DNA of 64,000 bases from Marsupella aquatica (taxonomy: Eukaryota; Plantae; Marchantiophyta): contig OZ316897.1 of the NCBI GenBank assembly GCA_973895155.1, positions 708,515-772,514 on the forward strand, in the 5' to 3' direction. A model generated the notes under the pieces. That model was not told the origin of the DNA and did no database searches. It saw only the letters and a program-made list of their open reading frames with translations. Within the stretch, counting starts at the first letter, position 1; each line of letters begins with the position of its first letter. This document shows, one piece after another, positions 6,986-63,203 of this stretch. Made by a program: the position numbers and the translations under genes.

Positions 6986-7200
6986 CACAAGGAGGATATG
7001 CATGGTTTGGGTGCAGGGTATTTCCCAACATTCCCCTGGTAATTCATTGTTTGATAACAAAGAAGTAGGTATTCCGGCCATCTTGGGGTAATGCACCCAA
7101 ATTACCTGCTGAAGCCCACAGGTACCAGGGTATATCACACTCAGAGTATTTTGACCTCTCCCCTACGTGTCTCCAGGGAATTTAGCTACGTACAACCACC

Positions 7201-24600: not shown

Positions 24601-24800
24601 AGTACTTTAAAGCAGCGTGTTGTCTCCTGGCGGAGAAAAGATGGTGCCTAAGTGGCACACCAATACAGAATGAACCTAAGGATCTCTTTCCTTATTTCAG
24701 GTTCCTGCAATACTGTCCTCTACGCGAGTGGGGGGATTTCAACAAAATGTTGAAGATGATGAATGGTAGCACGAGTAAATCATATCAATTCCTATCTCGA
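21700..24800 (+). pseudogene. 5' part of a PMD-like / acidic / SNF2 (Rad5/16-like, CHR27/28-type) helicase fusion gene
   Basis: ORFs 21832, 22720 and 23122 share one frame through point stops up to the donor at 23715. Phase-0 splices lead to LYPH*QIGLAWM..GGILADDQ (23831-23989) and GMGKT (24216), followed by VLDECH, RWCLSGTPIQN and DLFPYFRFL. Cut by the Gypsy LTR at 24801. Confidence 0.82.
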
Positions 24801-27800
24801 TGTGGTGTGTCCCATGGCTCCCTAAACCCAAGAAACCCCCCTGCACAAGCCGATTCCCGCAGGTTTTTGAGCTTGGCGAGGCCGGTTTCACGGCTTAGCG
24901 GCATGGGACGCTGCTAACCTCCTCTACTACTACTATTAACATTTTACACACATATACTGGACAGATCCTTCATCGGGTCATGAGATACGTAGCCGGCCTA
25001 ATCTAGGCCTTCCCTTGTCGTCCCCATCCTTCTGGTTAGGTATATTTGGATTCCGCCGCCGGAATGATCCCCAATAGGCTTGGTTAAGCCGCTAAGACCT
25101 CTCTCAGCTCGACACATCCAACTCTCACTCCCTTGCTTACTTTCCTTCATCTATTAGTTGATGTGGGCACTCTTCACACAAGTTAATGCGACACACACAT
25201 AGCAAAATGACTCCTTCTGACTGAGTCATACCATGCACTTGCCATACAAACAGTACATCTCATACACAAGCTCTGCGAACTAAGCCGTGAGGCCAACTCT
25301 ATTCAGCTCTTAGGCATGAGGAAACATGAATATACACAAGGGTCACTGTATGACTAACCGAGAGCTTCTCTCACTACTTGATCCCAGCCCGGCTGGTACA
25401 ACTAAAAACTTGCTAAAGAAGAGGCCCTAAGCTCCCCGCTGCCCAGGTACTTATCCTGGTAGTGGATCCGCCTAATTCCTTGCAGCATAAGCCTAATCTA
25501 CCTAACTGAATCTACCTATGTACAGCGAGGCAGGAGTACAAGTGTTGCTCTTACCAGTGGAACCGCAATCCCACTAAGCTAAGTGTCAGGGCCGCCTCCT
25601 GGCCCTGATCCTAATCCTAAACTTAGAGATCTGCGCCCGCCCTGCCCACTCACGCCTCCTCCCTCCACCTCCGCCCTCCTTGAAAGGAGCGGCCCTCCAC
25701 CACCGTCATGGCAGCGGTGTCTGTTCCTCAGTGGACGCCCCCAATGCTTCCTCCTCAGCCACTGCCGTAGGTTCGTTCTCTGATAGATTACCTGCCCTGG
25801 ACTGAGTCAACTCTCCATCGGCCTGACTAGGTCCACCTTCGGCTTCAGCCTCGGCTTCGGCTTTGGCATCAGCCATGGCTTTGGCCTGAGCCTCGGCTTC
25901 ATCATCCCCTTCTTCTAGGGTAGTTGGATCCTCTGTCGCGACCCTGTCTGGGGTCGGTGCTGGGTCTACCTCCTTGGGCACCACGGCCTGTGGAGCCGTA
26001 TTACTCCTTGACCCTGAAGGTTTCCGTTTCTTCTTCTTTTCTGGTTCGGCAACTGGTCCCTTCCCCTTCCCACTTACTTCCAGCATTGGTGCAAGTGGCG
26101 CGGCTTGTCCTTCGGCCAGTACCACTCCTGGTAACTTGGTTGCCCCAATTGGATTTGGGCCTGATGAAGCCAAGCACTTAAATACTGCGGCTTGTTTCTT
26201 CAGCCGCTCCGTTTGGTTGTTGGCTCGCCGTTGTAAGTTCTCCAGCTTCCACGTACTTTCCTCCAACTCTTCCTGTACTTCGTCCAGGTCCTTGCGTGCC
26301 TCCTCCAACTCTTTCTGGGCTTCCTCCAACTCCCTGTGGGCTTCCTTCAATTCCTTCTTGAAGGTAGCCCTCTCCTCCTGGGTTGCTCTTAGCTCTTTGT
26401 CGAGCTCCGTTACGACCTCAGACTCCATTTTATTCATCTTGGCATAAGTCTGGTCGAGCTGGTCGTCCTTCTCCCGTAGGTCGGCCTTGAAGCTGGCCGT
26501 CAGGGACACAAGCTCCTGCTGCAGCGCAATAATCCCTTGATAGGATTTCCCTAACTCGGCCTCCTTCTGCTCAAGGGCTCCGCGGATATCCTTGAGCTCC
26601 CCCTCTTCAACGCCCTTTCCCTTCTTTGGGTCTCCGGCATGGCCCGGTTGTTGGCTGTTATGTGGGCTTCCTCTGCATCCCTCAGCTCTCGCTTCCACTT
26701 CTCCCGCTCCTTGATCGCATCGGCCAACTCACCTTGGGTTCGAGTCAGTTTATTCTCGATAATCCGGTTATCTGGTTGTGCGGTATCCAACTGGCCCTGC
26801 ATGATATTTAGCTCATGCCGCTTAATCCGCAGCTCATCTTGGGCTTTCCTGGCCGCCCTCAAGTCTTCGATTTCGGCTTCCCTTGCCCTAAGTCGACGGA
26901 TGACCTCGTCCTTCTTGCTTCTTTCCAAAGCCACCGCTTCTTCTAATTGGCGCTTCTCCAACATCTCCCTCTGGAAAAAGGGTCCCTGCTCCAACTCCTC
27001 CCCAAAGATGCTGAGTGCCAGCTCTCCACACATCTCCCCGTACTCCATGGCTCTATTTTTAGCATAGGTGGAGGAAGTAGCAGTCATCGGCATCATCCAC
27101 CGCGGCCTTTGTTCCCAAGCCGTCTTGCGGATCTCTTCTATTGTGGCTGGAGGGTTGCTTTGTTTTTCTGCAAGCCGCCTGATGTTCTCTGGCCATTCTC
27201 CTCCTGGTAAATCCTTCTCCCTAGCCAGGGCTGCTTCCTCTTCCTCCCTGATTCGCTCCTGAAATTCCTGCGCCGTCTATTTTATGCCGTCAAAGCTCGG
27301 GGAAGCAACATCTGGTGGGGGAGACTCGGGGCTGCTCTGCTGGCTAGGGTCCCCTCGGACTACTCTTGGGAGTGTGGGGATGAACCGGCCACAGGTCCTT
27401 AATCCTGGAACATGATGATCCGACCCATAGCCGGAGTTGTCATTGCTGTAGTCCTCCACCGCCTCCTCCTCAGCTTGGACTACCGGCTTCTCCCGCTGTT
27501 CTCCTGGTTTTGTCGTGAACACGGCTTCATCTCTTGCCGGTCTTGGTTCCTCCTCCGGCTTCCGTGTTGATCTCTTGTTCTCCTTGCCGTGGTCGGGAGC
27601 TACGGCCTGCTTCTCTTCAGCTTCGGGACTAGAGGCTCCTACATACATCCGGACTCCCGGTTCGTGTTCCGGCCTCCTTCTCTCCTTGGCTCCAGTAAAG
27701 GGGTTTTCCCTTGTAAGCCGGCTTAGGCCTACCTCTGGAGCAGTGTCCTGTATTGTTGCCGTTGCCGTTGCCGTTGCTATTGCTGTTGCTGTTCTCTTTT

Positions 27801-29510
27801 CCTTTTCCAGCAATTTCAGCAGATTCTGCATGCCTGGTTGCTGCATCGGCAAGTCCTCCGTCCTTGGCGTAAACACCTGCTCAATTGTAGGACTGTCGGG
27901 CGGGTTGGGTTTCTCCGTTGCCGGCCTCTGTTCCGGAACCTCCTCTGGTGCCCTTGCCTGTAGGGGAAGTACCGGGGCAAAGGTCTTACTTCGGGCATAC
28001 CGGCACAATAGCGGCATGTGATAGCCAAGCTGGGACACGCATCCCTTGCCGATCACCAGTTGTTCCTCCTTCAAGATCTTCTTTAGTTGAGTGAGGAGGT
28101 AACCGTTGTAGTCCCGGCTTGGGTCTGGTCTCTTTGCCAGATAGACCTGTGCTTTGCCGATCTCTGGTCTCGGCCAGTTGCAATGCATGGTTACCCGCAA
28201 GAAATCGATCATCTCTCCTATATGCGGGTTGGTGCAAGTGTTACGGAAGAAGCCATTCTTTGTTGAAGGCCCTGGGAATGACCTGAACTCCATGTCTGGC
28301 AAGGTCTTCCTGGTATCTACCTTGGTCTTATTGCCCATCGGCAAGCCAAACACTTTGGCAATCACCTGGGGAGTGAGATAGAAATCCTTCCCATACACCC
28401 TTGTGGAATTGGTCTCAGACTCCCATGATCCCACGAATTCTAGTAAGTCTGAATTCGGCACCTCCGGCTTCAGCCACGGTAACCTTACGAAGGCTTCCAA
28501 GCCGGATCCGGCCATGAAGCCCTGATATTTCCGAGTCTGCATAGCCGTAAAGCATGCATCCTCCTCCCTTGCAAAGTGTAATTGGACCTCCTCGGGGAGG
28601 ATCGCCGCCCAGCCTTTCCAGGTGTCATCTCTCGTTGGAATGGCGTTGATGGGGTCGACCTCCTCCTCCTCGGCTTCGCTCTGCCTCCTGCTCTGCTGTT
28701 CGGCTGGCCTCTTTGGTGCCGCCGACCTCATTCTTTTTGCCGGGGTGACCTCTTCGTTGTTGTTTCCCTTTCTCTTCATCTCGGCTGCCGTGGATGTCTC
28801 TCCTAGCACGGTTGCCTTTGTCCACCCCTCCGTGCTACCCTTCAATTCCCAGTGTATGTCGTTGCAGCGTTTGATGGCTTCGCGGATGCCGACGACTCTG
28901 TCTTCGCAAAACAGAAGGTTGTCGAGTTGATTGGTAGTAGGAGTCCACAAGAATTCGGCCTTGATGAGTTCTCCTCCTAAGAAGGCAGCTTTCTGCAGCT
29001 CCCACAATCGAGCGAGCTCCTGCCGTTCTCGAGCTGCTCTCTCCAATTCTTTGTCCTCGTAAGTCCCAATGTACTCAGTTGCCCATTCGAACAGGCATCC
29101 CCAAAAATGTGCCGCTTGATTGACGTTGCTCATACCCTTCTTGAGTTGATAGTCGATATCTGCTCCCACCCTGAGTGCTTGCTTAAGCAGTTGACAGTAG
29201 TTGGCCTCACGTAGTCGTCTGCCCAGTTCGTGCCTGCAAATGAGCCACAACTCCTCGCGAGCGGTCCTTACCCCTCTCCTCCTCGGCGTTTCTCTCCTGT
29301 TGGTGACCCCTAGCCGCCGGCACTTAGCGTGCCCTAACCCTAATCATGTTCTCTCCCCTGGCTTCCTTACTTCCGGCCTCGGCTCGGGTTCCATAGTCAC
29401 CCTTAATTGTTTATATTTTCCTTATTTCTGTAACTATACTAATGTGTTTCTAGGGTACACTTCTCTTTTCCACTTTAGACTAGCCCAGTGATTCCTGGCT
29501 AGGCATCACA
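24801..29510 (-). repeat. 4.7-kb 3' LTR of the Gypsy element
   Basis: Starts TGTGATGC (29510) immediately after the PPT AAGTGGGGAGCTA (29511-29523) at the end of integrase. Ends ...CACACCACA at 24801. TG..CA termini with imperfect terminal IR TGTGATG/TGTGGTG. Confidence 0.8.
25706..29394 (-). pseudogene. LTR-internal ORF: PMD-like domain plus long coiled coil (broken into 657, 181 and 330 aa pieces)
   Basis: ATG 29394 is in frame with the 657-aa ORF through one TGA (29346-29344); TATAAA at about 29410-29415. GLEAFVRLPW...EFVGSWESETNSTRVYGKDFYLTPQVIAKVFGLPMG resembles the plant mobile domain core. E/K-rich heptads downstream. Confidence 0.7.
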
Positions 29511-30764
29511 TAGCTCCCCACTTAATTGTGAAGCGTCCTCACGAACAACTTCATCTTCGTCCATATAGTATTTCTTGAGGCGGTCATAGTGAATACGAAT
29601 TGGGTACACCTCTCCGGTAATGTTGGCCAATTGTACAGAGCCATTGGGGAACTTCTTTGATACCCTGAAAGGTCCTAGCCAGCGAGTGTAAAGCTTCCCT
29701 GGAAACTTACTATACCTACTGTCATAAAGTAATACAAGATCTCCTGTGTGAATACTAACTACTTTCAACTTTTTATCATACTGCTGCTTCATGATATTTT
29801 GTCTATATTCTACTCTCTCGGCTGAAATCATTCTTGCCTCCTCTAAAGCTTCTAATCTATATTCTCGCTCCTTCAAGCTTTCCTCCTCTGAGACTCTTTC
29901 CTCAATGGTAACTTGAAATGTCGGTATCTCAAGTTGCATGGGTACCAGAGCTTCTTGTCCAAAGGTTAAGAAAAAAGGTGTATGACCGGTAGTGGATTTA
30001 TAGGCTAAATTGTAAGCAAAAATGGCAGCAAACAATTTATCATCCCAATCGAGTTTGTTCTGAGCTACTGTCTTGTTCAATATCTTTCCTATAATCCCAT
30101 TGGCTCGTTCTGTCAATCCATTTGCCTTTGGGTGGTAAGGAGTGGTAGGCCTATGTCTAACTAAATACTGCTCATTTAAACGACTAATTATATCATTCAG
30201 AAAATGGGTTCCTCTATCACTAACTAATTCTAGGGGTGCTCCATACCTGGTGAAGATCTGCTCATACATAAATCAAGCTGTAGTAATTGCATCATCCTTT
30301 GTTGTCGGCCTGGCCTCCACCCATTTAGTTGCATAATCCGTGGCCAGGATTATGTACTTTTTTCTCCGAGGATGGGTTAATGGTTTCAGCGGTCCAATGT
30401 AATCAATACCCCACTTCTCAAAGGGTGCCAGAGGTAGAATAGGGTGCAGTGGATGTCTTGTAGACGCCCTTGGTCCTCCTGCTCGCTGACAAGGATCACA
30501 CTGTTTGATGAACTGATAGACATCCTTGTGCAAGGTGGGCCACCAGTAACCGGCATTTAATATTTTTTTAGACGTGGTTACTGGAGCAAAATGTCCTTCG
30601 GCCTCTTCTCCATGCATAGCCCGTAAGACTCGTTTTACCTCTCTCTTTTCTAAACACCTTTGGATAGTGCCGCTGATTCCATACCTATGTAGCACACCCT
30701 TAATGTACTGATACTGTCTGACCTTCCGTAGAAAGACTGCGGCTTGTTCTTGGGTTAGCCCTGG
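29499..30764 (-). pseudogene. Gypsy integrase
   Basis: Zn-binding H-H-C-C (GHF...YWWPTL...CDPCQR), WGIDYIGP, VSDRGTHF, YHPKANGLTER and WLGPF; in-frame stops at about 30270 and 30765. Confidence 0.92.
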
Positions 30765-32765
30765 CTATAATCTGGATGTGCTGAGAAATTGCAAAATCTC
30801 CGGGTACCATGTATCGGCTATTTCCACAACGAATAGCTCCTCGTCGGGGAATCGATCATCGATGCAATCCGTGGCTAGTTCACCGGTGATCCTTGAAAAG
30901 AAGTCGGCATTGGCATGTAGCTTCCCCGACTTGATCTTTAGCTCGTAGTCAAACTCTTGTAATAGCAAAATCCATCTTGCTACCCTGCCTGTAAGGTCCG
31001 GCTTATTTACTAGGTACTTCAAACTTTCATGATCGGTATGAAAGATTACCTTGTACCCTAGCAAATAATGCCTAAACTTTTTACATGAATAAATGACTCC
31101 TAATGCTTCTCTTTCTGTGGTGGAGTAGTTCCATTCGGTATCGGCAAGCTGACGGCTTGCAAAGTATATGGGATGGTCCCTCCCTTTCTCATCCAACTGA
31201 CTTAGTACTGAGCCGATACAGAAGCCTAAGACATCTACAAAGACATGAAATTCCTTGTTCCAGTCTGGTGCTATCATGACTGGGGCTTCCACTAACTTTT
31301 GCTTTAATTCCACCACAGCTGTTACTCTTTCTGGTGTGGGTTCAAAGTCTGCGCCTACTTTGAGCATGTTGGTTAATGGTAAAGCTAGCTTGGCAAAATC
31401 TTTAATAAACCGTCGATAATACCCAATGCAGCCCAAGAAGGATCTCACATCCTTTATGTTCTTAGGTTGCATGATGTCAAGCCATACTGCTAGCTTACCT
31501 TTGTCAATCTCAATGCCCTTCTTTGATACCTTGTGACCTAGTAGCACACCTTCTGTTACCCCAAAGAAACATTTATCTGGGTGTAACTTGAGACCTACCT
31601 CTCTGCATCTCATGAAGGTCTTCCTTAGATATTTAGCATGTTTTGATGCCTTCCCAAATACTGCAAAGTCATCAATGAAGATTTCCATGAACTTTCTCAA
31701 GTAATCATGGAAAATGTTCACCATCAATCGTTGAAACATAGCTGGTGTGTTACAGAGTCCAAACGACATACGATTGAAGACATAGATCCCCCATTCCGTG
31801 ATGAAGGCCATCTTGATTTGGTCCTCCTGCCTAATCCTGATTTGGTTATAACCAGAGTACCCATCCATGAATGAATATAGTTCATGACTGGCTACCATGT
31901 CTAGTACCATATCAGTAAAGGGTAAAGGAAAATGGTCTTTTAACGTTGCTTCATTCAGCTTCCTGTAACCCTGACAAACCCGGATCTTGGGTTTACCATC
32001 GGGTCCAGCTTTCTTGGGAACTATCACAATTGGAGACAACCAATCTGAATGTAGGATTGGAGTGATGAATCCGGCTTCCACTAGTTTGTCGATTTCTGTT
32101 TTGACCATCAGGGAATACTTAGGATTCATCCTTCGAATTGGTTGTCGAAATGATTTGGCTCCTAACATGAGATCAATTCGGTGTTCCCCTAGTGTTGGGT
32201 CTACTCCCTTTAGATCTTGGTGACTCCATGCGAACACATCCTGAAATTCAATCAGTAAGTCACTGATCTCTTTCTCAGGCTCAGGTGCTAGGTCCTTCCC
32301 TAAGTTCAGTTCCCTTCCTTCTCCTAAGTCGAGCTTTCGATATTGCCGTGCTTGGATCATATTAATCTGCTTCTTCAAATTCGGGTCCAGCTCGGCTTCC
32401 AGCCTTTCCAGTCTCATACCTCCATAAACTGGAATCTCGGCTATACTGGCCGAGTCGGTTTCTTCCTTGGTGTCCACAGATTGTCCCCTTGCCGGTCTAT
32501 CCGGTTTTGAACTGGTAGTCGGCTTCCCTTCCTGCCTTGGCTCTGGATTGTGTCTGTGCATCTCATCCACCTCTTCCTCCTGAGGGTCAGGCCGCTGTGC
32601 TCTCCCGGCTTCTAATAGGGCCTCGATTTGTTCTGCCCACGTAATCGGCTTGTATGCCGATCCCTTGGTATTTAATTCCTTGCCGATGATAGACGGCGTT
32701 GTGGATCCTGCCGGCTCTGCCACAACGCCTGAGGAAAATCCACCCTCTCGGGTATTGCTCCCCAC
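30765..32765 (-). CDS. pol: Gypsy reverse transcriptase-RNase H
   Basis: DHFPLP, MDGYSGYNQI, MSFGLCN, FIDDF, FLGCIGYYRRFI, YSTTEREAL, TDHESL. Confidence 0.95.
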   Translation of the reverse strand: MGSNTREGGFSSGVVAEPAGSTTPSIIGKELNTKGSAYKPITWAEQIEALLEAGRAQRPDPQEEEVDEMHRHNPEPRQEGKPTTSSKPDRPARGQSVDTKEETDSASIAEIPVYGGMRLERLEAELDPNLKKQINMIQARQYRKLDLGEGRELNLGKDLAPEPEKEISDLLIEFQDVFAWSHQDLKGVDPTLGEHRIDLMLGAKSFRQPIRRMNPKYSLMVKTEIDKLVEAGFITPILHSDWLSPIVIVPKKAGPDGKPKIRVCQGYRKLNEATLKDHFPLPFTDMVLDMVASHELYSFMDGYSGYNQIRIRQEDQIKMAFITEWGIYVFNRMSFGLCNTPAMFQRLMVNIFHDYLRKFMEIFIDDFAVFGKASKHAKYLRKTFMRCREVGLKLHPDKCFFGVTEGVLLGHKVSKKGIEIDKGKLAVWLDIMQPKNIKDVRSFLGCIGYYRRFIKDFAKLALPLTNMLKVGADFEPTPERVTAVVELKQKLVEAPVMIAPDWNKEFHVFVDVLGFCIGSVLSQLDEKGRDHPIYFASRQLADTEWNYSTTEREALGVIYSCKKFRHYLLGYKVIFHTDHESLKYLVNKPDLTGRVARWILLLQEFDYELKIKSGKLHANADFFSRITGELATDCIDDRFPDEELFVVEIADTWYPEILQFLSTSRL

Positions 32766-34892
32766 TTAGCCGTTTCCAACTGGCTTACGTCTTGCGCTTC
32801 CTCCAGAATTGAAGCTAAAAAGGTGGACTCTATGGCAAAGCAGTCCTCGGCTTCATCGTCACAATTCTCCAAGTCACCTTCCATAGGTTCTTGCCATAGT
32901 CCGCTGGGGGATACCTCTGGTCCAAAGATACTTTCTTCGGTTTGGTCAGCGAGGCATTCTAGCCATCGTACCTCATCGGCTGATTCCAGTCCACTGTCGT
33001 ACCCGTCTACCTCCCTGATGCTTCTTCTGTTGTCATCCTTGGTATCCCAGGATACAGTGATAGAGGGGGTCCCAAAAGTGAACTCCTTCTTACCCCAATC
33101 CTCTATTACCTTGGCTAGGTATAGCCATGGCCTACCAATCAATAGCCGGAATGACGTAGGATTTACCGGCTTCATTACTACATAGTTAATGCTAAAGAAG
33201 ATACCTCCTATCTCTGTCTTGATGCCGGTTAACACTCCCGTGGGAATGACCTGATATCCATTGGCCATGTTCAATACTCTTCCAGTCATTTCCGGTGTTA
33301 GACCCCACCCCTTTGCTGTTGAATCAATCATAATACATACCCCTGATCCTCCATCGATGGGTACCCGTAGTAATAATTCTCCTTGAATCATTAATGGTAA
33401 TGCTGGGGCTCCTTGATCTTCTTCTATCATTAGTATGTCGGATCTGGTCGCTACCTTGGGTAATCTTGGCTTGCCGAGGATCGCCTTTCTTAACTGCTTT
33501 CGGAAGTACGGGCTATTTTTCAATAGTTGACCTACTGTTGCCGAGACTCTAGATTCTAGTACATCCTTAGCTAGGTCATAGGGAACTAACGGTTTCTCTA
33601 GTGGTATCTCCATCTTGGATTCGGCTTGTTTTTTCACGCTAGTCCCCACAACCATTGGATCTTCCAAAGCAAACAATGCTTTTGCTCGTTTCATATCCTT
33701 GGCTATGGCTTCAGTATTCTCCAGGGTTTCTAATTCTCGTAGTTGTTCCTTAACACTAGCTGTGATAGATGGGTAGAACAACTTAGGGTGGTCTCGATTG
33801 AAGTCGCTGTCCTGTGAAGGATTGGGCTCACTGGTGGGCTCATGGCTTACCTGTGTTGATGATGCCCTTCCTTCTCCTTCCGTTGATGTTGACGAAGAGT
33901 CGATCTTCTCTTCCTTAACCTTCCCTTTATTTTTAGCCAGCCCATCCCACCTTTCCTTCCTTCTGGTTGATCGAGTAGAGACCCGGTAGCAATCATGGTC
34001 CATATCCTCCTCTAAAAATGTTGATAGGGCCTCGGTCTCATCATCAGATGGTCCAAACTCTGCCTCGGCATCCACTTGCCATCCGAGCTCGATGTGGTTG
34101 ATTTGAACTCCTCCTGGGGTAGTACCTGGCGGCAAGACCTTGACCGGCAAGAGCTTATGATTTGCGGCCAATCCTGCCAACCAAGTAGGACATTGTCCTA
34201 GCATGTGACCCTCCTGTCGGCATCCCATACATAGCTGAGCTGGCTGTCCATCACCTTGTTTGCATGCATTCGGGCATTCTCTAGCAAAATGGCCAGGTTG
34301 ACCACAATTATAGCATGCCGCAAATCTTTGCACATTCGGCCTAGGAGGTACTGACGGATTCTGAATAATCCGAGGATACATCTATCCTGGATTGTTCCTT
34401 AATCCTGACCAAAGAGATGCAGGTCGGTTGGATAGGTCTCGTGCTCCAGTCTCACTGATGCCGAAAACACTATCAGCGGCATCTCCTAGAAAGTACTCTA
34501 CTTCTCCCTGACATGGTCTGACTTCAGCCACATGCCGAACATGACTAGTATTGAGCTTAGGACATGCGTCTTTATGATGTCCGGTTTTATAACATAAGGC
34601 ACACCATACAGAGCTATCCTCCTGCACTACCTTCTTCTTCGGCTTCACATCTGCTATTATAGCTTTAAGCTGCTCGGTAAGGGCTACGATGTTATCTGGT
34701 GGTTTAGCCTCCAGCTTGACTTTCGTCTTCCCTCTCCTTCTGCCCTTCCTTTTCCTAGTTTTTTCTTCTTCAGAACTAGAAGATGACTCACTCTTGCTAC
34801 TTCCACTATCCGAGCTTGAGTTATCACTTCTTGACTTCTTAGAGTGTTTCTTTTTCTTATCCTTTTTCTTATGGGGTGATCCTTCCTCCGAT
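32672..34892 (-). pseudogene. gag: Gypsy gag C-terminus (3 CCHC knuckles) and aspartic protease
   Basis: CALCYKTGHHKDAC, CYNCGQPGHFAREC and CMGCRQEGHMLGQC; protease motifs IDGGSG and LLIGRPWL. Confidence 0.9.
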
Positions 34893-35534
34893 GAGGAACA
34901 CCTCACAAAGGCTGGCCTTCAGTTCACAAGGATTGATGGGTCAATGGCCCCAAAAAAGAGAGACAAGGTGCTTCACATGTTCAGCAGGACCCCTGAGGTG
35001 AGTCAAATTTGTCCATTTTCAGACAACTAATTCATGTATACTTTCACATTATAATTGTAATGACCAAGTTTTCTATGGGCTGTGTAGGTGAGCATCATTC
35101 TGCTTTCCTTGATGGCAACATCTACAGGTCTCAACATAACTTGCGCAAATCATGTAGTTCTAGTAGACGGGTGGTGGAATCCCTAAGTGGAAGACAAGGG
35201 TGTGGACCGGGCACACCGTATTGGGCAGACAAAACCAGTCACTTTTGCACGGTTTATTGCTAAGGATTCCATTGAGGTGAAGATATTGAAGCTACAGGTA
35301 ATTCCCTGTAACTATTAGATCGAGTGTGCATTGTTTGTATATGGCTTTTATAATTAACCTGCTAGTTTTTGACTGCATTTCATGTGGATTGTGTTGATTG
35401 TGCAGAACAAGAAGCGGAGGATGATTGGTCAGATTATGTATGGTGGTGTGAAAAAACAGGATGTATCACGAGAAGACATTGCCTACTTATTCGCAAGTGA
35501 CAGTTCTCAGTCGGATTCTGATTGGTGTATATAG
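34893..35534 (+). pseudogene. SNF2 helicase C-terminal (HELICc) exons
   Basis: FTRIDGSM..KRD (exon to 34997); exon 35088-35297 with GLNITCANHVVLVDGWWNP* and [12 protein letters not shown]; last exon 35406-35534; GT-AG introns. Confidence 0.9.
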
Positions 35535-35970: not shown

Positions 35971-36223
35971 CATGGTTAGGTGAAAACTGGCTAAATAAAT
36001 GGAAGAAAAAGAAAACACAGGCTAGGGTGAGCAATTTGCTTTAGGTGAACAATAGAACCCTAGAGACCTGCTTAATTTTTAATGATTTTTTTCTTTTTAA
36101 TGTCACCTAATTGTAAACGATAGTAACTAAATTGGGCATGCCTTATCTAATTTTCTTAGATCAATTTCTGACTATTAGATAACGTGGCTGGTAAGGTTCA
36201 TGGTTAGGTGAAAACTGGCGAAT
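35971..36223. repeat. Satellite remnant between the two DNA transposons
   Basis: Same 300-bp unit, with an internal deletion. Confidence 0.93.
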
Positions 36224-54000: not shown

Positions 54001-54846
54001 ATCCCATTCCTTAATCGTTACATTGATTTCTTGAGGAAAAGTTGCCAGGATGAGACCTCTGCAGCATACCGCGAGAGATTTCCTTTGGTGAAATATTGGG
54101 AGAGGCTTGTTATGGCACTCTCTGAGGCACTTACAATAGAAGGGGAGGGAGAAAGACAATTGTCATTGACAACTGATTTCTGGCCAAAGACTAACCATGG
54201 CACAGGTTACAAGGTGATTTTGGGGACCTCTCAACCTTCAAGTGAACCTACTCAAAATTCAGAGATGATGGACCTTCAAAATGAGTACATGGAAGAGATG
54301 GAAGGTCAAGCTGCACCCTTCGTTGGTGCACGAGAAGAGCGAGAACTTGCACGTTGGATTCCCCTACAAGATATTCAAGAGGGTCACTTTGTGTTTTTAC
54401 GTCCAGAGGATGAATGGGAGCAAAAAAATGGCAAAGGGCGTTTCTGGTTAGTTCGAGCTTTGGGTGGTGTGGATCCAAACCATGAGGTTTCTTCACTAGA
54501 TTTGCAATTCAGTGAAGGGTCTTCTTCAAGGTTTTCTAAGAGCATTCACCTAAGTAGCATTCCTAAGCGGTATGCTCCTATGTTCCAAGTGCAATGGTGG
54601 AGGTCTAAACATGGTAAGCATGATGCAAAGGATGATGTTCGATACGAACGTTGCTTTCAGACCACTAAGACTTGGGAGCTAGATCCTGGGTTTAGCACTA
54701 TCACTCAAAGTTGGCAGTTTGCAAATTCTGCAATGTATGGGTTTAAGTCAGGTGCCAAAGAACAAAATATTATGGATAGAGGTTTGACAATTCCCAAGAA
54801 TGTTTTGAAAACTCTCAAAACTTACATGGAAGGTATTGATGAGTAG
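51099..54846 (+). CDS. Transposase: three Tnp1/EnSpm-like repeats followed by a Cys-rich region and a Sola-like DDD core; one +1 frameshift in an A10 run
   Basis: ORFs 51099-52247 and 52102-54846 join into ~1248 aa if A10 (52191-52200) were A9. Motifs IIHDKMDQAK, LQMDNSGKDNKN, FLMVGHTHEDVDALFS and FAKCTFC. N-terminal repeats VAVGTI...P...H...LG.....V.I.....LP.P.....DA....VIW. Confidence 0.85.
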
Positions 54847-55431
54847 AGTGATAGAGTGGTCACAAGTGTCCACTATGTAATGACTTGTAGGTAGGAGGGT
54901 CAAGTTAATTTCCATGCATTTGTCTAAAGTAAGTGAGAGAACAAGGCTTGCAATCAAATACTCTATGATCTTTCTTAGTTATTGAATGGACTTTTTGATA
55001 AAAATTGTTATTTTTGTCTTAGTACATATATTTCTAGAAAATGATGGCAGTTCTAAGTTACTTGGATGTCATCCTAGTTTGAATATAAGATATTTAACTT
55101 GTCTAGCATTTCATTGCTGCTTAGATAATGATCCTATCCAAGCTAGATGTTTTGAGTATAGATGCTATCCAAGCTTATGTGTTATTACACACGTTCTATC
55201 TATTTTCAACCAAATGAACACTTTTTATCACCCAAATGTTTTTTAATATTATCCAAATTAATATTTTCTTTGCCCAAATGTCTATTTTTTTGCCCCAAAT
55301 TTATAATTCATGATGCTTAAATTTTCATTTTTCATCCTTCAAATTTACAATTCTTATGCCTAAAAGTGTGTTTTTAAATGCCCAAATTTCCAAATCTTCT
55401 TTATAATTCCACTTTTAATGAATATAGTGAT

Positions 55432-57190
55432 GAATGGAAGAAAAAGAAAACCCAGGAGCACAATGTTTTGCTAAGTCCTCAAAGGCACTAGAGGGCGGCT
55501 GATGGAACATGGCTCTTAGGTGAACAATTCACTTTCTCATTTGCTTTCTAGGTGAACAATAGAACCCTAGGGACCTGCTTAATTTTTAATGATTTTTTCT
55601 TTTTAATGTCAGCTAATTGTAAGCGATAGTAACTAAATTGGGCATGCCTTATCTAATTTTCTTAGATTAATTTCTGACTATTAGATAACGTAGCTGGTAA
55701 GGTTCATAGTTAGGTGAAAACTGGCTAAATAAATAGAAGAAAAAGAAAACCCAGGCTAGCAATTTTTTGCCAAGTCCTCAAAGGCACTAGAGGGCGGCTG
55801 ATGGAACATGGCTCTTAGGTGAACAGAACTTCACTTTCTCATTTGCTTTAGGTGAACAATAGAACCCTCGACACCTGCTTAATTTTTAATGATTTTTTTC
55901 TTTTTAATGTCACCTTATTGTAAAGGAGAGTATATTGGGCATGCCTTATCTAATTTTCTTAGATTAATTTCTTACTATTAGATAACGTGGCTAGTAAGGT
56001 TCATGGTTAGGTGAAAACTGGCTAAATAAATGGAAGAAAAAGAAAACCCAGGCTAGCAATTTTTTGCCAAGTCCTCAAAGGCACTAGAGGGCGGCTGATG
56101 GAACATGGCTCTTAGGTGATCGAAGAGAACTTCACTTTCTTATTTGCTTTAGGTGAACAATAGAACCCTAGGGACCTGCTTAATTTTTATTGATTTTTTT
56201 TCCTTTTAATGTCACCTAATTGTAATTAAACGATAGTAACGAAATTGGGCATGCCTTATCTAATTTTCTTAGATTAATTTCTGACTATTAGATAACGTGG
56301 CTGGTAAGGTTCATGGTTAGGTGAAAACTGGCTAAATAAATGGAAGAAAAAGAAAACACAGGCTAGCAATTTTTTGCCAAGTCCTCAAAGGCACTAGAGG
56401 GCGGCTGATGGAACATGGCTCTTAGGTGAACAGAACTTCACTTTCTCATTTGCTTTAGGTGAACAATAGAACCCTCGACACCTGCTTAATTTTTAATGAT
56501 TTTTTTCTTTTTAATGTCACCTTATTGTAAAGGAGAGTATATTGGGCATGCCTTATCTAATTTTCTTAGATTAATTTCTTACTATTAGATAACGTGGCTA
56601 GTAAGGTTCATGGTTAGGTGAAAACTGGCTAAATAAATGGAAGAAAAAGAAAACCCAGGCTAGCAATTTTTTGCCAAGTCCTCAAAGGCACTAGAGGGCG
56701 GCTGATGGAACATGGCTCTTAGGTGATCGAAGAGAACTTCACTTTCTTATTTGCTTTAGGTGAACAATAGAACCCTAGGGACCTGCTTAATTTTTATTGA
56801 TTTTTTTTCCTTTTAATGTCACCTAATTGTAATTAAACGATAGTAACGAAATTGGGCATGCCTTATCTAATTTTCTTAGATTAATTTCTGACTATTAGAT
56901 AACATGGCTGGTAAGGTTCATGGTTAGGTGAAAACTGGCTAAATAAATGGAAGAAAAAGAAAACACAGGCTAGCAATTTTTTGCCAAGTCCTCAAAGGCA
57001 CTAGAGGGCGGCTGATGGAACATGGCTCTTAGGTGAAGAGAACTTCACTTTCTTATTTGCTTTAGGTGAACAATAGAACCCTAGAGACCTGCTTAATTTT
57101 TAATGATTTTTTCTTTTTAATGTCACCTAGTTGTAGAGGATAGCAACTAAATTGGGCATCACTTATCTAATTTTCTTAGATTAATTTGTA
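55432..57190. repeat. ~300-bp satellite array, right block (~6 units)
   Basis: Same unit as 4695-6985. Confidence 0.97.
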
Positions 57191-57785
57191 ATCAATTTCT
57201 TAGATTAATGCATTTCTAATCAATTTGTCTTGCAACGCGTGAACTCCACAGGGAATGGCATAATATTACTTCAGCCGGCTCACATTTTGGTGGGGGATGC
57301 ACTCTCGGATGTCTGGGTGTGACGCTGCCAGCACGGCGGTTAATGAGTGATCTGTTCTAATCCGTGCTTAGCACGCACGCTAAGGACATAGACTTAGTCC
57401 GTAATAATTAGCATAACAACACTAAAATAGGTAGTAACCACGACTAGGACATCATTAGTCAATAAGAAGCATTTACGCTCGGGCTGGCGGCAGAGCGCCA
57501 TTTGTACCCCGGGTTACAAGCGTGTAGGGATGCCCCTCGGGTCCGTATAACAAATCAAGGGGGCGGCTCGCTGACACACTCTGACCCGGACCTGCGGAGT
57601 GGCCGGTACACTGCAAGCATGAAAGGATCGGCCTATCAAAAGGAGGAAGGGACCGTTCGGCCGACGAGCCCTCAGGGTATAAAAGGCGGGCCATTCTTTC
57701 CTGAAGCACCACCACTTCACCCTTCGCGCCAGCTTCAATCCCAATTTCCTTGTTTGCTCCTTAGTCATCCACCGCCGTTCCCTAT

Positions 57786-58223
57786 ATGTCTATCATGATT
57801 ATGTCCAGTTCTGCCCTTCGGTTTTGGCTTCAATTTCTATCCATCGGAAATCATTTAGCGAAGTTGCTGGCCGAGATCAACCCGCGCTGGTACAAAACCA
57901 AATGGCAGTACGAACGACTCATCCGCCTAGCTGGGCACTCTCACTATAATGGAGATTTCAGCCTCCCGTTCCAGAGCAAGCTCTATTGTGCTGACAAGAT
58001 CTCCAAATACGTCTTCGATGGCCCAAAGTACGTCGGTTTCCAGGAAGCACTCCTTTGGCTTCCGGATAAGGTCTTCACACTCCCGGGCATGATCGACTTA
58101 CAACGACACCACTTCAATCATATCCCCGCCAAAGTCCAGGCTTTTGTAGACTACCAGTTTGGTACCGCAGCTATAGGCGAGACATCTATCCTAACCTCAC
58201 TCGGCTTCCCCTCAACTTGCTGA
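57786..58223 (+). CDS. LTR-internal ORF A (145 aa, unknown function)
   Basis: Open frame downstream of a TATAAAA box at about 57678. Confidence 0.45.
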   Translation: MSIMIMSSSALRFWLQFLSIGNHLAKLLAEINPRWYKTKWQYERLIRLAGHSHYNGDFSLPFQSKLYCADKISKYVFDGPKYVGFQEALLWLPDKVFTLPGMIDLQRHHFNHIPAKVQAFVDYQFGTAAIGETSILTSLGFPSTC

Positions 58224-58228
58224 ATCAT

Positions 58229-60391
58229 ATGGCGCCTCCTCCAGCTACAACCGTCGCCGACTCATTGGTGCCCGCACCAACACCACCTCGGCCTTAGCCA
58301 AGCCAATCTCCACCACCGGTCGCACCACCCCTCCGGGTGCAATCCATGATAAACGCGGTGAACATCAGTTCCAAAGGCAAGGAAGCCCACCCTCCCCTGA
58401 ACCGGCAACCTCAAGGTACAAATCAACATGCGCCGGGCAACCCGACACCACTCACACAAACCTGGGTGGATAACACGGTGACAGTGGCAGCCCCAGCACC
58501 AGTGCTTACGACAGTAGCGTTGCCGCCGCCCGATAGAGAGGATGGGGAGATGTCCCCCTCTTCAAGTCACCCCGAGAACCAGTCTCGGGGTAGGAAGAGA
58601 AAGGAACCCGCAGCCGTATCCGGGCTACCTTTGGCCACGGTTGCGGTGGCCAAGCTGACCATGCATCGCATGGGGGAGAATGTCCACAAGAACATCCTCC
58701 ACCCCAAGCATGCATGCTACCTGAAGACCCAAGGGTTTGAGCACCTTGACTCTCTCCCTTGGAATGGAAGTAGGTACTACGGGCAGGACATGACGGAGTT
58801 CATCCAGAACTTTGACAAAGCCGGCCAACAAACCCATGCGCACGGGAGAGCGATGTCCCTCAATGAGGCACGTCTTAAGATGATCTTTGGCCTAACCGAA
58901 GGAATAAATTGGGTGGAATCACGAGCTCCCGGGGGCAAAGGAGCCAAGTATCAGTCCTCTAGCTTCCCGGCCGAGGGAGCAGTGGACAACGGATTCTTGA
59001 TGAGGACATGCCTCATCCCGGAGGTAGCAGAACGGCTGGAGTTCCAGCGGTACACCCTCCACATGATGGAACCAAGGGGTGAAATATCCGCCGCCCAAGT
59101 CATCTAGGTCGAGAACTACCGGCCTAGGAAGTGGGCATCCTTCTTCGTCAAGAAGTTCCACCAGGAGATGGAGCGGAGAAGGAAGACTTTGTACCTCGGT
59201 GGGAAGGCGTACCTCGCTAGCCACATTGAAATCATCATCGAGTGGTATGCCCGTTTTGACCGCCAAAGCCTCCCTTGTATCAACGAGCCCGAGCTGACCA
59301 CATCACGGTGGGTATTCCCGGCCCAGGAGAGGCGACCTCAGCCCGAGGCCCAAAGTCTGGTGGCCGTGAGACCTACTACCCCGGCCCCGCAACCAGCCGC
59401 TGCCGCCCCTTTGAATGTACCGGACAATGGAGTTATCGCGACCCTGGACTCGATCAACCAGGCAGGTCAGCGCGATTGAAGCCGGGCTGGTAGAGGCCGG
59501 ACCCGAGCCCGAGACTACAGTTGCAGAGGACGTCCCGCTAACCTCCACGGTTGTTCAGGAGAACCGACCACCCCGTGCAAACCCAACCCCCTCTACCGTC
59601 ATACTTCAAGGGCTGGATGTCACCACTCCAACTCCCGCGCGAGCTGAGGTCTGTCCTTGCCCAAACCCGGATGGGCATAGTCTGGAATACCCGGAACTTT
59701 TTGCACCGGGCACGTTTTTGAATGGGTTGCTGGGAGACTTCTCTCAACAAATTGCACGGGATACCGGGGAGTACATGGCACGGAAGGTGGCCTACTTCTT
59801 CAACCAGGAATTGGTTGCTGCTGTGCAAGCAGGGCATGCGCAACCTGAGGCTACGCAGAGAATAGAGTGGTATCGGGTTGAGTCTACCCACCTGAAAGAT
59901 GAAGTTGCAACCCGGGAGACCAAACTCCAACTGCTGCGGCCTCAGGTAGCGGCCACTAAAGATCAGGTGGCCAAAGCTAGGGCCTGAGCAGCCTTGGCAG
60001 AGCAGGCCAGAGCTGGGAAGGACGCCGAGATTGCACGGCTCCAAACCCAGATTGATGGTTTGAAGGGACAAGCCGTCATCTGGCAAAAGGATGTGGAGGA
60101 GGCTGACGCTCGGGCCCAATGGGACACAACCAAGATAGACGCCCTGAAGGCGGAAGTGGCACGGCTTCAAGGAGAAGCCACAAAGCAGGCCCAGTTGATG
60201 GACAAGCTGACAAGCAACTGGAAGAGGCATGCCAGGAAGCCGCGGAGGAGACCGACCCGGTGAAGCGAGAGAATGAATCTCTGCTGGACCAGGTCCAGCT
60301 CCTCAAGCAGGACGCCGACCGGCTCAGAAGGCAGCGGGATGGCCGCTCCAAGTCCAACTCTGGCGGATCTAGCAAGCGCGCCAGACATTAG
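58229..60391 (+). pseudogene. LTR-internal ORF B: PMD-like plus coiled coil, homologous to the ORF at 25706-29394
   Basis: GFEHLDSLPW...DMTEFIQNF...IFGLTEG...SFP...NGF...TC..P...E...F.R.T.H...PR.EI..AQV aligns by eye with the Gypsy LTR ORF. Interrupted by TAG/TGA stops and frameshifts. Confidence 0.75.
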
Positions 60392-62135
60392 CGGCGGGAT
60401 AGGTTTAGGATAGAGTTAGGAATAGGATAGTCAGGCGATAAGGACAAGCGCCAAAACTAGTTAGCAACGCTGTCCTATCCAACCAACCTTTGTAGTTTGA
60501 ATCTTAGAATAAGACACGTCGTTTTACGGCCTGACAGTTAGCAGAGTTTAGAATCTGGGATAGCTTAGATTCGAGCACGTGGTCGGTCTGGACCCCGGCT
60601 CTTAGTATTTAGTGTACCCCCCGGTAGAGGCAGGGGGGATTTTAGTTTCAGAACCAGGTATCCGCAAGATGTGCGGGGAGTCCCGACCTTTGTGAGTAAA
60701 AGAATACCAAGGAGGGAGGGTACGACTAAGCTCGCTGGGCGAGTGCGGAGCCGGGCTCCGTTGTAGTGTATGCCGCTATGCCGTTGGGCCTATTTACTCA
60801 AGAGATGTCGAGTCAACCGTGTATATGTATATGACGGATTCTGAAGTAAAGTCTTTTCCCACCATTTCCTTCGTGTAAACCGAGATTGTATGTGCGTGAG
60901 TTTAGTTGCATGTATGAATCTCGTATATGGGTAGAGAATGCCTGGCCGAACGCATCATCCGAGCTGTGCATGGGGTGTAGGCTGCGGATAGTGGTTGCGA
61001 GCCCGGGTTGGATACTTGTATCATTGGATCTGGATCGGAGGCGGACAGTACGAAGGCTTAGAAGCCCTTAAGCCGAGGTCGATCCAGCTATCGACTTAAC
61101 GTACGTTCCGGCGGTGGAACACAAACTATACCCATGACATTTCTATAAGTAGGAATAGGCGCACTTAGCGCTAGATTACGGGAATAATGTTCAGTTTGCA
61201 CATCCCTCCTTGCCCGAACCCTCAAAACTAATGAAGATTATGCCCGTCTAAGCTGAAATCCGTGCAAGGACGAAGCTTATGGCGTGACACTGGGACACAC
61301 AGGTAAACTTTGGCACACATTGAGAGCTACTGTCTACTGGAATCTGTGGAAGGATAGGAGCTCACATTTCATTGAGCACACCAGATTATCTAATGCTCCA
61401 GCAGTCATTAAAAAATCCTGGCACAGACTGGCAATTTACATAAGTAAGGATTGGGCTAGACATAAGTTCAAAATTAAAATGGGCAAATACATGTATGGGG
61501 CTACTCTCAATGACATGACCTTCAACTATGGATCTTGGGCAATATGGGAAATCCATGAGGACACCTTACAGATCCCACCAGTTCCCCCTAGACCCCCATG
61601 AAGGTTTTTGCTTTGTAGGGGTAGAAGTTGTATTATAGGCTATACTGTCTGATAGTTTTGTCTATCACGGAGTGGGTGCCCCGCTCACACCTGTCCACTG
61701 GCCGGTCTTTTGGGGTTTGAGTCGCCCCTTATACGGTGGTTGAATTTCTGGTTTGGCTTCCTTTCTTGGGGCTTGTTTGTCTCCTGGTCCTGGCTCCCCC
61801 GGTCCTCTAGGCTTTTGAACCTCTGGTCCCCTGCCTACCCCCTCTTGTGGGCCACCCTTGTTCTATGTTGACTTTTTTAATGAAATTCAATTGGTTTTTT
61901 GGAAGGAAAAAAAAAAGCACAATGGATAGGTACGGAGTCGCAGGGTCAAAAACTATAAGAAGGGCGCGAAGTGCAATGTCCAGCACACCCATCCTCTTCA
62001 GTCCACATCGCTACTAGTTAGCTACTCGATCGCAACTCTTTCCTTCCGTTACCAGTAATTTTTGTGATCAGCAATCGATCCATAAGGTTATACTTCACTC
62101 TCTGCAGCTTGTCCTCATTCCGCCAGTCACTAGAT

Positions 62136-63203
62136 ATGGGAGACGTACGCGAAATATTAGTCTTTCAGGATCAAAAGGAACTTAAATTTATCAACGATAA
62201 CCACTGGTCCTTCCACATCGCCAAATCCGTCGACAAGTCTGATGGAAGTGCAGCAGCCTGCAACACAATCTGGCAATCGAAGGGAACCGCCCCCAATATT
62301 TCCATCCAATGGAACGCAGTTTACGCCTTGAACTGGACCACTGACGTTCCACAAATGGGAAAGTCAGTCTCTCTTGGAGGCAACTGGCAGCGATGTGACA
62401 AAGGCCAAGCTTTCGATCTCGATGCTACCGGTTGCTGGGTCACCTCCGCAACAGTCGGCGTGCCGGACTTCATGTGTATCAACAAGGTCGACTACGAGTA
62501 CCCAGACGTCGAGGGCATCCATTTCATTGTGGGCGTCGAGAACAGCGCCGGGCATTACGACAAAATTTTTGTTGACGAAACTGCTCTTCTCCGAGGTTGC
62601 ACAGCTCGATACCAACCGGTAGAGGGAGTGTATTGGTGGTACGAGGTGGGCCTGAAGACCGGACAGATGCACTATGTCGATAAATCATCATCCGAATTCA
62701 AGGATCTCACAAAGCCCAGCCCTAGCATGCACAAATACTTCTACGCAACGTCTTATAAGATCCCCGAAGGACGTTGGAAGACCCAAGAAACTCGACCGGA
62801 GGGGCAGGTGACAGCTGCTCTTGCGTCCGAGCTTGTTCCCACACTCAGTCCCAATGCAAGCATCGGCAAGGCTCCGATCACGGTGGATGGGGGGCCCGCT
62901 GTGAGAAAGATCCTTTTCGGCGTCCCCGTTGGAAATCCAAGGAGCCAAGCTATCATCAAGGGCAGAATGGAAAAGTCATTCTCCATCAAATACAAAGATG
63001 TCCAGGTGAGATGGGCGTCCTTCTCTGAACTTTGGATGACTCTTACTGGATGGAAGGATTCCCCACCAACAAATTCTGTCCAGGCAATTGGGCCGCCGAA
63101 AGACGACATTGATGCAGAGATAAAGAACGTGCTGGAAAAGTCAGCAGACGTCCTTCCGAGCCACGAGAAATGGGTGATAGAGGACGTCCAGGGTCCGTAC
63201 TGA
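62136..63203 (+). CDS. Intronless hypothetical protein (~355 aa, beta-rich N-terminal domain)
   Basis: Long uninterrupted ORF from ATG 62136 with normal composition, outside any recognised TE. Confidence 0.7.
   Translation: MGDVREILVFQDQKELKFINDNHWSFHIAKSVDKSDGSAAACNTIWQSKGTAPNISIQWNAVYALNWTTDVPQMGKSVSLGGNWQRCDKGQAFDLDATGCWVTSATVGVPDFMCINKVDYEYPDVEGIHFIVGVENSAGHYDKIFVDETALLRGCTARYQPVEGVYWWYEVGLKTGQMHYVDKSSSEFKDLTKPSPSMHKYFYATSYKIPEGRWKTQETRPEGQVTAALASELVPTLSPNASIGKAPITVDGGPAVRKILFGVPVGNPRSQAIIKGRMEKSFSIKYKDVQVRWASFSELWMTLTGWKDSPPTNSVQAIGPPKDDIDAEIKNVLEKSADVLPSHEKWVIEDVQGPY

What the first reader, a model, noticed from the sequence alone, without database searches (positions are those of the whole stretch)
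57318..61289. Independent 4-kb solo LTR with a homologous ORF supports the coding-LTR architecture
Seen: TG..CA ends, a similar start (TGTGACGC versus TGTGATGC), a perfect 5-bp TSD, no gag/pol, and a TATA followed by ORF A and ORF B. ORF B shares LPW, D..EF, FGL..G, SFP, NGF...TC..P and PR.EI..AQV with the Gypsy LTR ORF and has the same C-terminal coiled coil, while the DNA is not visibly alignable. Inference: two distinct families have conserved an LTR-borne protein over a long time, which implies selection.
Basis: partly seen in the sequence, partly recalled or inferred. Interest (0 to 1): 0.8.

Follow-up and report, generated by a model that had tools for sequence, protein, structure and literature searches.

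The report
Retrotransposon end-repeat carrying anti-silencing-like gene
This 4-kb repeated piece of DNA, probably a lone terminal repeat left by a liverwort jumping gene, holds a broken copy of an accessory gene whose protein is predicted to share its fold with a plant transposon protein that blocks gene silencing, an unusual place for such a gene.

Summary
The unit is real. It runs TG..CA from 57318 to 61289 between copies of CTGGG. Public contigs hold the empty site with one CTGGG, and the same 3' end in many flanks. Its homology to the ORF behind the window's Gypsy integrase is significant (29% over 133 aa, E 3e-15).

Three corrections. 'ORF A' and 'ORF B' are pieces of one broken ~900-codon gene, intact in a relative. 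The coiled coils are no more alike than shuffles. The Gypsy copy has no 5' LTR, so its 'LTR' is inferred from a polypurine tract followed by TG.

The conserved domain has 67 homologue clusters (named ones are liverwort) and no Pfam family above cut-off. Its confident model matches only VANC21, the anti-silencing DNA-binding protein (Z 8.6, next 2.2). A related complete element carries the same gene inside, between two polypurine tracts, like an Athila extra ORF.

Best reading: a solo LTR of a Gypsy family in which priming moved to the upstream tract and pulled the gene into the LTR. Pairing around gag-pol was not shown and the function is inferred.

The parts
57313..57317 (+). left target-site duplication CTGGG
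   Evidence: empty-site contigs, table 5c
57318..61289 (+). 3972-bp TG..CA repeat unit, likely solo LTR; ends TGTGACGC ... GCGTGACA form a 7-of-8 inverted repeat
   Evidence: 3712-7803 contigs laid per run; 16 of 32 listed contig pieces stop matching at 61289-61294 and run on into other DNA
57678..57684 (+). TATAAAA about 100 bp before the gene start; putative promoter of the accessory gene (function untested)
57786..58223 (+). 'ORF A': N-terminal domain of the broken accessory gene
   Evidence: matches P0196 residues 4-115 (E 3.7e-11); a profile of 5 homologue N-termini hits ORF A at E 1.6e-11 and the Gypsy ORF N-terminus at E 5.7e-6
58298..59476 (+). 'ORF B': low-complexity linker, basic cluster (RKRK) and conserved core domain (58652-59248), with a premature stop at 59105-59107; predicted VANC/PMD-type fold
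   Evidence: fold of the homologous Gypsy domain
59415..60391 (+). C-terminal pieces in two further frames (stop at 59985-59987), ending in a coil-like tail
   Evidence: tblastn to P0196 residues 633-899, E 4.4e-11; weak coiled-coil Pfam hits
61106..61132 (+). 27-bp motif (TTCCGGCGG.GGAA...TATACC) shared with the Gypsy 3' region at 25064-25039, near the 3' end of both; possible conserved LTR signal
   Evidence: score 32 against a maximum of 27 in 586 control tiles
61290..61294 (+). right target-site duplication CTGGG
29511..29523 (-). polypurine tract AAGTGGGGAGCTA in the last codons of the Gypsy integrase, directly followed by TGTGATG; same GGGGAGCTA-TGTGATG as at the LTR start of L001
24801..29510 (-). 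Gypsy 3' region of about 4.7 kb, inferred LTR; end at a CA at 24801 or 24806; no partner LTR in the window
25706..29133 (-). homologous accessory gene of the Gypsy copy, also broken (stop at 27277-27279, frame change near 26551-26728)
29499..34893 (-). 5'-truncated gag-pol of a non-chromovirus Gypsy (zinc knuckle, RT, RNase H, integrase)

Best explanation
The unit is a multi-copy, TSD-flanked TG..CA element that holds a broken copy of one ~900-codon accessory gene; it is likely a solo LTR of an Athila-like Gypsy retrotransposon, and its protein is predicted to be a DNA-binding factor of the VANC/PMD fold that would protect the family from silencing. Shown: ends, TSD, many insertions, homology to the gene behind the window's Gypsy integrase, one-gene organisation in relatives, and the structural match of the model to VANC21. 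Inferred, step by step: (1) the ancestral gene lay between pol and the 3' LTR, flanked by two polypurine tracts, as in L001; (2) plus-strand priming and a TG end became fixed at the upstream tract, which puts the gene into U3 of both LTRs; (3) LTR-LTR recombination left this solo copy, which then decayed; (4) the protein, made from its own TATA promoter, would oligomerise through the coil, bind short family-specific motifs and counter DNA methylation or Polycomb silencing in trans.
For: Ends, TSD and empty sites. Same 3' end in many flanks: 16 of 32 listed pieces, loose-end agreement 0.46-0.77. No longer terminal repeat inside the unit. The last 9 bases equal the published Retrosat2/RIRE8 LTR end GGGCGTGACA (PMC3485330 passages). 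In the window Gypsy, GGGGAGCTA+TGTGATG lies before the gene. In L001 (circular 10,852-bp contig, RT 57% identical, same starred 12-row clade) the same string lies after the gene and starts a ~1-kb LTR followed by a tRNA-Asp-type PBS, while a GGGGAGCTA without TG lies before the gene. The L001 gene has the domain (iE 1.9e-8; hhalign probability 96%). Shared 3' motif in both window units. Model pLDDT 91.7. VANC21 9lnk_A: Z 8.6, rmsd 4.0, 205 residues aligned over model range 1-212, next hit Z 2.2 among 48,161 chains; repeated on 9lnj_A. Atlas leads to DUF1985 and PMD clusters, all under 0.9. Weak link to Athila Transposase_32/ATHILA ORFs (hhalign E 5.5e-4 over 150 columns, probability 30%). No transmembrane stretch (max Kyte-Doolittle 19-mer 1.33) and basic clusters present. 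Clustered AGCGCTAC motifs in L001.
Against: No paired copy around gag-pol and no PBS behind the 3' end among the 24 loose-end rows shown, with 82 not shown. The only complete relative has the gene internal, not in the LTR, and only 1 of 80 loci held the domain. Foldseek gives VANC21 only E 7.2, TM-score 0.45; Z 8.6 with 8-10% identity is near the level the tool calls common, and a fold shows no function. MAIN/MAIL1 with the same fold act in silencing as well as against it (PMC5418596, bioRxiv 2024.09.27.615353 passages). No convincing motif enrichment in the solo unit itself. AAGCCG in the Gypsy copy (34 in 10,083 bp against 2 in 49,945 bp elsewhere) was picked after the fact and reaches z 6.3 against a null best-hexamer z of up to 6.2. 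The relic second tract at 25437 is a one-mismatch match of a kind found 16 times in the window, and the solo unit has none behind its gene.
Confidence: 0.55

Rival explanations
1. The gene is an ordinary internal Athila-type extra ORF, as in L001. The 4-kb unit is a derived piece (extra-ORF region plus a short true LTR), made by priming at the upstream tract or by deletion and then copied, rather than the standard LTR of an autonomous family.
For: L001 has exactly this internal arrangement. Sense extra ORFs between pol and the 3' LTR are typical of this superclade (PMC6317226 passages; PMC7264820 part 1 of 3). Contig depth is very uneven along the unit, much lower in the first 1.2 kb.
Against: The TSD encloses the whole gene. 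In a second, unalignable family the tract and TG again lie before the gene. The conserved gene parts are about as deep as the 3' non-coding part in all 4 runs, where a short LTR should be deeper; this is weak, as the tool warns depth is no copy number.
Confidence: 0.2
2. The unit is a non-autonomous TG..CA DNA element (Ginger-like, recalled) or another mobile unit that captured the gene and never flanks gag-pol.
For: No gag-pol or PBS was seen next to any copy. Two homologues (P0170, P0182) carry a weak DDE_Tnp_4 piece in the same protein model.
Against: The inverted repeat is only 7 of 8 bp. The end matches a known Gypsy LTR end. Homologous genes sit in two Gypsy elements. The 3' motif is shared with the Gypsy 3' region.
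Confidence: 0.1
3. The architecture is a coding LTR, but the protein does something other than anti-silencing: transactivation of the LTR promoter, chromatin tethering of integration, or an env-like role.
For: Only the fold links it to VANC. Plant extra ORFs have been proposed as regulators of transcription or nuclear import (PMC7264820, PMC11963269 passages).
Against: An env-like role lacks support: no transmembrane stretch in 10 of 10 sequences checked. The one solved structural match binds DNA and removes methylation (PMC5735166 passages).
Confidence: 0.15

Closest known systems
Athila-clade extra ORFs (eORF-3'F; ATHILA ORF-1 PF03078, Transposase_32 PF20167) of non-chromovirus Ty3/Gypsy
   Same: Sense accessory gene downstream of pol with a globular domain and coiled coil. 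L001 has this layout with a tRNA-Asp-type PBS. Weak profile similarity; 2 of 46 homologues hit PF20167 at E about 0.006.
   Different: No Pfam match above cut-off. Here the gene lies downstream of the tract-TG junction and inside a TSD-flanked unit, so likely inside the LTR. Named relatives are liverwort.
VANC21 (DUF1985) of VANDAL21 Mutator-like DNA transposons
   Same: Only structural match over the whole domain (Z 8.6). Both are TE accessory proteins with a coil; VANC and the Athila domain are predicted to oligomerise through coils (PMC13547354 passages).
   Different: 8-10% identity, a retrotransposon host, and no tested DNA binding or demethylation. No tandem motif arrays in the solo unit.
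Plant Mobile Domain proteins (PF10536): Gypsy-encoded PMD-A and host MAIN/MAIL1
   Same: Reported to share the fold with VANC. PMD-A is Gypsy-encoded. Atlas leads.
   Different: No PF10536 hit in the window pieces or in 46 homologues. The passages read describe PMD in angiosperms; I saw no statement that PMD-A lies inside LTRs.
LTR-encoded genes of complex retroviruses (MMTV sag, HIV nef; recalled, no call)
   Same: An accessory gene in U3 with its own promoter, duplicated with the LTR.
   Different: Unrelated proteins. Here the gene fills about two thirds of a 4-kb repeat.
Retrosat2/RIRE3/RIRE8 (long-LTR rice Gypsy elements with ORF0)
   Same: LTRs over 3 kb, many solo LTRs, an extra ORF, and the same terminal GGCGTGACA.
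   Different: ORF0 is described as upstream of gag-pol; no homology was tested; different lineage.

Membership tests
Solo LTR of an LTR retrotransposon | TG..CA ends with a short inverted repeat | tested here: met
Solo LTR of an LTR retrotransposon | 4-6 bp target-site duplication absent from the empty site | tested here: met
   CTGGG twice; single in empty-site contigs of 3 of 4 runs
Solo LTR of an LTR retrotransposon | dispersed multi-copy repeat with a fixed end | tested here: met
   (3' end examined closely; 5' end not)
Solo LTR of an LTR retrotransposon | same sequence occurs as a direct pair around gag-pol, with PBS and polypurine tract | tested here: inconclusive
   no genome held; no PBS among the loose ends shown, 82 rows hidden
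Athila clade (REXdb) | RT/RH/INT phylogeny inside Athila | tested here: inconclusive
   the window Gypsy RT groups with Calypogeia, Riccia and L001 (100/99); its relation to the seed-plant clade is an open fork; no reference set was used. The solo unit has no RT.
Athila clade (REXdb) | no extra RNase H and no chromodomain in pol | tested here: met
   Pfam on the window Gypsy pol pieces and L001 pol; applies to these elements, not the solo unit
Athila clade (REXdb) | tRNA-Asp PBS and sense extra ORF after pol | tested here: inconclusive
   met in L001 (PBS type per PMC1142308 passages, motif recalled); the PBS region is missing from both window elements
Pfam PMD / DUF1985 / Transposase_32 / ATHILA | score above the curated cut-off | tested here: not met
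   0 of 8 extra-ORF pieces of the window, 0 of 46 homologues, 0 for the L001 gene
VANC-type anti-silencing factor | DUF1985/PMD-type fold | tested here: met
   Z 8.6, rmsd 4.0, 205 aligned, next 2.2; model of the Gypsy copy's domain with the solo copy in the alignment; Foldseek weak
VANC-type anti-silencing factor | short target motifs accumulated in the cognate element | tested here: inconclusive
   AGCGCTAC clusters in L001; AAGCCG borderline in the Gypsy copy; none in the solo unit
VANC-type anti-silencing factor | sequence-specific DNA binding and loss of methylation in trans | not testable with these tools
   needs EMSA/ChIP and methylomes

The most novel reading that the evidence does not exclude
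Liverwort Gypsy retrotransposons moved a VANC-like anti-silencing gene into their LTRs by switching polypurine tract. Every solo LTR then becomes a self-contained anti-silencing cassette that survives the host's deletion of gag-pol, and the retrotransposon-borne PMD/VANC fold predates the angiosperm genes MAIN/MAIL1 and VANC.
Probability: 0.3. Interest if true: 0.85.

Novelty: new variant of a known kind. Interest (0 to 1): 0.62.

Why it matters
Plant LTRs are treated as non-coding, and extra ORFs are described in the internal region (PMC7264820, PMC6317226 as read). A gene inside the LTR is doubled in each element and survives solo-LTR formation, the host's main way of deleting these elements. 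The two arrangements seen here (window Gypsy and L001) suggest a simple, testable route for such capture. The fold bears on two questions stated in print: the function of Athila-type extra ORFs, and whether Gypsy-borne PMD or the host genes came first, which Ikeda 2017 calls fully open. VANC is described as dicot-specific and derived from MAIN; a retrotransposon version in liverworts would push the fold back much further.

Tried and rejected
No own genome was held, so paired copies could not be searched directly. The search for homologous proteins on the Gypsy ORF region gave 0 of 506 candidates, and on the two-sequence alignment 1 of 676. A fold from the two-sequence alignment failed (pLDDT 31.7). 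PDB by sequence gave nothing below E 0.024; BFVD nothing at E<=0.001. IMG/VR scans found nothing. The metagenome scan with a domain subfamily alignment found nothing. No RNA holder was listed; this says nothing on expression. Coiled-coil and pre-coil homology between the two window copies was not significant. The profile comparison with Transposase_32 ORFs alone was weak (probability 9%). No pol C-terminus with a tract-TG junction was found among fetched proteins. No tRNA genes. Literature searches for ORFs inside LTRs: searches gave 0 papers, one general review (listing only), one unrelated mouse paper (listing only); on a second Athila tract gave 0, so the two-tract layout of Athila is recalled only. 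Tanaka 2026 (VANC21 structure) and Sasaki 2022 were not held, so any statement there on retrotransposon homologues was not seen. No supplements were read. Rows dropped: 3 of 67 hits (P0154 ankyrin protein, P0189, and the short-stretch P0166) were left out of alignment A2; 46 of 67 were scanned with Pfam; 30 of 67 were looked up for source; the RT tree kept 39 rows from 26 proteins, 18 loci and the window.
Full report
Observation. The unit runs from TGTGACGC at 57318 to GGCGTGACA at 61289 between two CTGGG. It has no internal terminal repeat and no blastn match elsewhere in the window. Four public runs from 2 studies hold 42-61% of its sampled words; one may be the source sample. Laid on it, they give 3712-7803 contigs per run, and 3 of 4 runs contain contigs that skip the unit and keep a single CTGGG. 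At the 3' end, 16 of 32 listed pieces stop matching at 61289-61294 and continue into other DNA, and the loose ends there disagree with each other (agreement 0.46-0.77). It is therefore a dispersed mobile unit with a fixed end and a true 5-bp TSD. No primer-binding site was seen among the loose ends shown.

The gene. ORF B matches the ORF at 29133-27280 of the window's Gypsy element at 29% over 133 aa (E 3e-15). With the stop read as X the match extends further and scores z 24.5; codon-position identity is 42/52/30%. The coiled coils are not more alike than shuffles (z 1.1-1.6). A profile search gave 67 clusters at E<=0.001. Of 30 looked up, 11 carry an organism name: 10 Calypogeia fissa and 1 Riccia sorocarpa. 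The Gypsy RT's best hits are Calypogeia at 66-67%, so the host is probably a liverwort (inference). P0196, an intact 906-aa protein, matches ORF A, ORF B and the tail in order. A profile of five homologue N-termini, chosen partly from those hits, finds both ORF A and the N-terminus of the Gypsy ORF. So A and B are one gene: N-domain, linker with a basic cluster, core domain, linker, coil. Both window copies are broken by stops and frame changes.

The fold. No Pfam family reaches its cut-off; 2 of 46 homologues hit Transposase_32 weakly. A 68-row alignment gave a model with pLDDT 91.7. Among 48,161 solved chains only VANC21 matches: Z 8.6, rmsd 4.0, 205 residues aligned, next Z 2.2 (again). Foldseek ranks it low (E 7.2, TM-score 0.45), so this is a distant relative at best. 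Atlas leads, all under 0.9, point to DUF1985 and PMD clusters. Extra ORFs of other fetched Gypsy loci carry Transposase_32 or ATHILA domains (7 of 10 scanned), and four of them align weakly along the domain (E 5.5e-4, probability 30%). Published passages say VANC is structurally like MAIN/PMD, binds short motifs and removes methylation from cognate elements, and that PMD-A is Gypsy-encoded. No transmembrane stretch was found.

Is it in the LTR? The window's Gypsy has no 5' LTR: it is cut at about 34893, between SNF2 and helicase-C pieces of an interrupted gene. Its 3' region starts with AAGTGGGGAGCTA followed by TGTGATG at the integrase end. An RT scan of metagenomes returned 80 loci; 1 of 80, L001, holds the domain. 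L001 is a circular contig (123-bp end repeat) of a complete element in the same starred clade as the window RT. Its order is pol, a GGGGAGCTA tract without TG, the 745-codon gene, AAAGAGGGGAGCTA followed by TGTGATG, a ~1-kb LTR, a tRNA-Asp-type PBS, then gag. There the gene is internal. The identical tract-TG string marks the LTR start in L001 but lies before the gene in the window's Gypsy, which supports an LTR start at 29510. The TSD-flanked unit containing the whole gene is what a solo LTR of such an element would look like. The two window units also share one 27-bp motif near their 3' ends (score 32 against at most 27 in 586 tiles), and the unit's end equals a published Gypsy LTR end. I infer that priming moved from the downstream to the upstream tract and so drew the gene into U3. 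The direction of this change is assumed from the Athila layout, not tested on a tree. Pairing around gag-pol, the defining test, could not be done.

Function. The most likely role is a sequence-specific chromatin factor that shields the family from silencing; I put this at about 0.4 given the architecture. L001 has clustered AGCGCTAC motifs (AGCGCTA 11 times against 0.3 expected), as VANC targets do. The Gypsy copy is rich in AAGCCG (34 in 10 kb against 2 in 50 kb), but after synonymous-codon shuffling and allowing for the choice of hexamer this is borderline. The solo unit shows nothing beyond chance.

What is known. Papers seen: PMC7264820 (abstract and part 1 of 3 of the main text); PMC6317226, PMC13547354, bioRxiv 2024.09.27.615353, PMC12859917, PMC5418596, PMC5735166, PMC1142308, PMC11963269 and PMC3485330 (passages only). 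They describe extra ORFs in internal regions and the VANC-PMD likeness. Searches found no plant report of an ORF inside an LTR, and one search listed three papers; the passages read from two of them did not link the Athila domain's fold to VANC. The library lacks most subscription papers. Earlier AI notes describe LTR-borne genes in other genomes, one in mosses; I did not check them.

Verdict. A real feature and a new variant of a known kind. Likely solo coding LTR (about 0.7); anti-silencing function inferred. Interest 0.62.

Noticed in passing
window 24339-24917 and about 34895-35300: A SNF2 ATPase piece (Pfam E 3e-26) and a helicase C-terminal piece (recognised by eye) flank the Gypsy copy; the Gypsy 5' LTR and the middle of this gene appear to have been deleted together.
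   Followed up: partly
window 4691-6985, 36017-36222 and 55430-57187: Arrays of a ~300-bp repeat in direct orientation, 91-95% alike and about 49 kb apart, with a short third patch; they may bound a large mobile unit or be a satellite.
   Followed up: no
window 40388-47041: A Copia-type element (RT and integrase motifs recognised by eye) with 169-bp LTRs 99.4% identical, so very young, yet split into several ORFs.
   Followed up: no
window 36679-40359 and 51099-54846: ORFs for an NIF phosphatase, a weak N6/N4 DNA methylase match, a DUF7869 protein and an unknown 382-aa protein, among 27-, 40- and 60-bp tandem arrays; possibly cargo of a giant DNA transposon.
   Followed up: no
window 61196-61261 and 58570-59157: Contig depth here is many times that of the unit's 5' part, and loose ends show a sister family with a different last 30 bp but the same GGCGTGACA end; a far more abundant relative seems to exist.
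   Followed up: partly
L001 4213-8270: Complete Athila-like element assembled as a circle, with an intact extra ORF of this family, two GGGGAGCTA tracts and clustered AGCGCTAC motifs; a good test system for a VANC-like protein-motif pair.
   Followed up: yes
proteins P0170 and P0182: Two homologues carry a weak DDE_Tnp_4 piece before the domain, so the domain may also ride on DNA transposons, or the gene models are chimeric.
   Followed up: no
window 62136-63203: A 355-aa ORF without a Pfam family, in the repeated DNA into which the unit inserted.
   Followed up: no
window 1-540 and 2612-3157: A direct repeat about 79% identical and 2.6 kb apart, possibly old LTRs.
   Followed up: no
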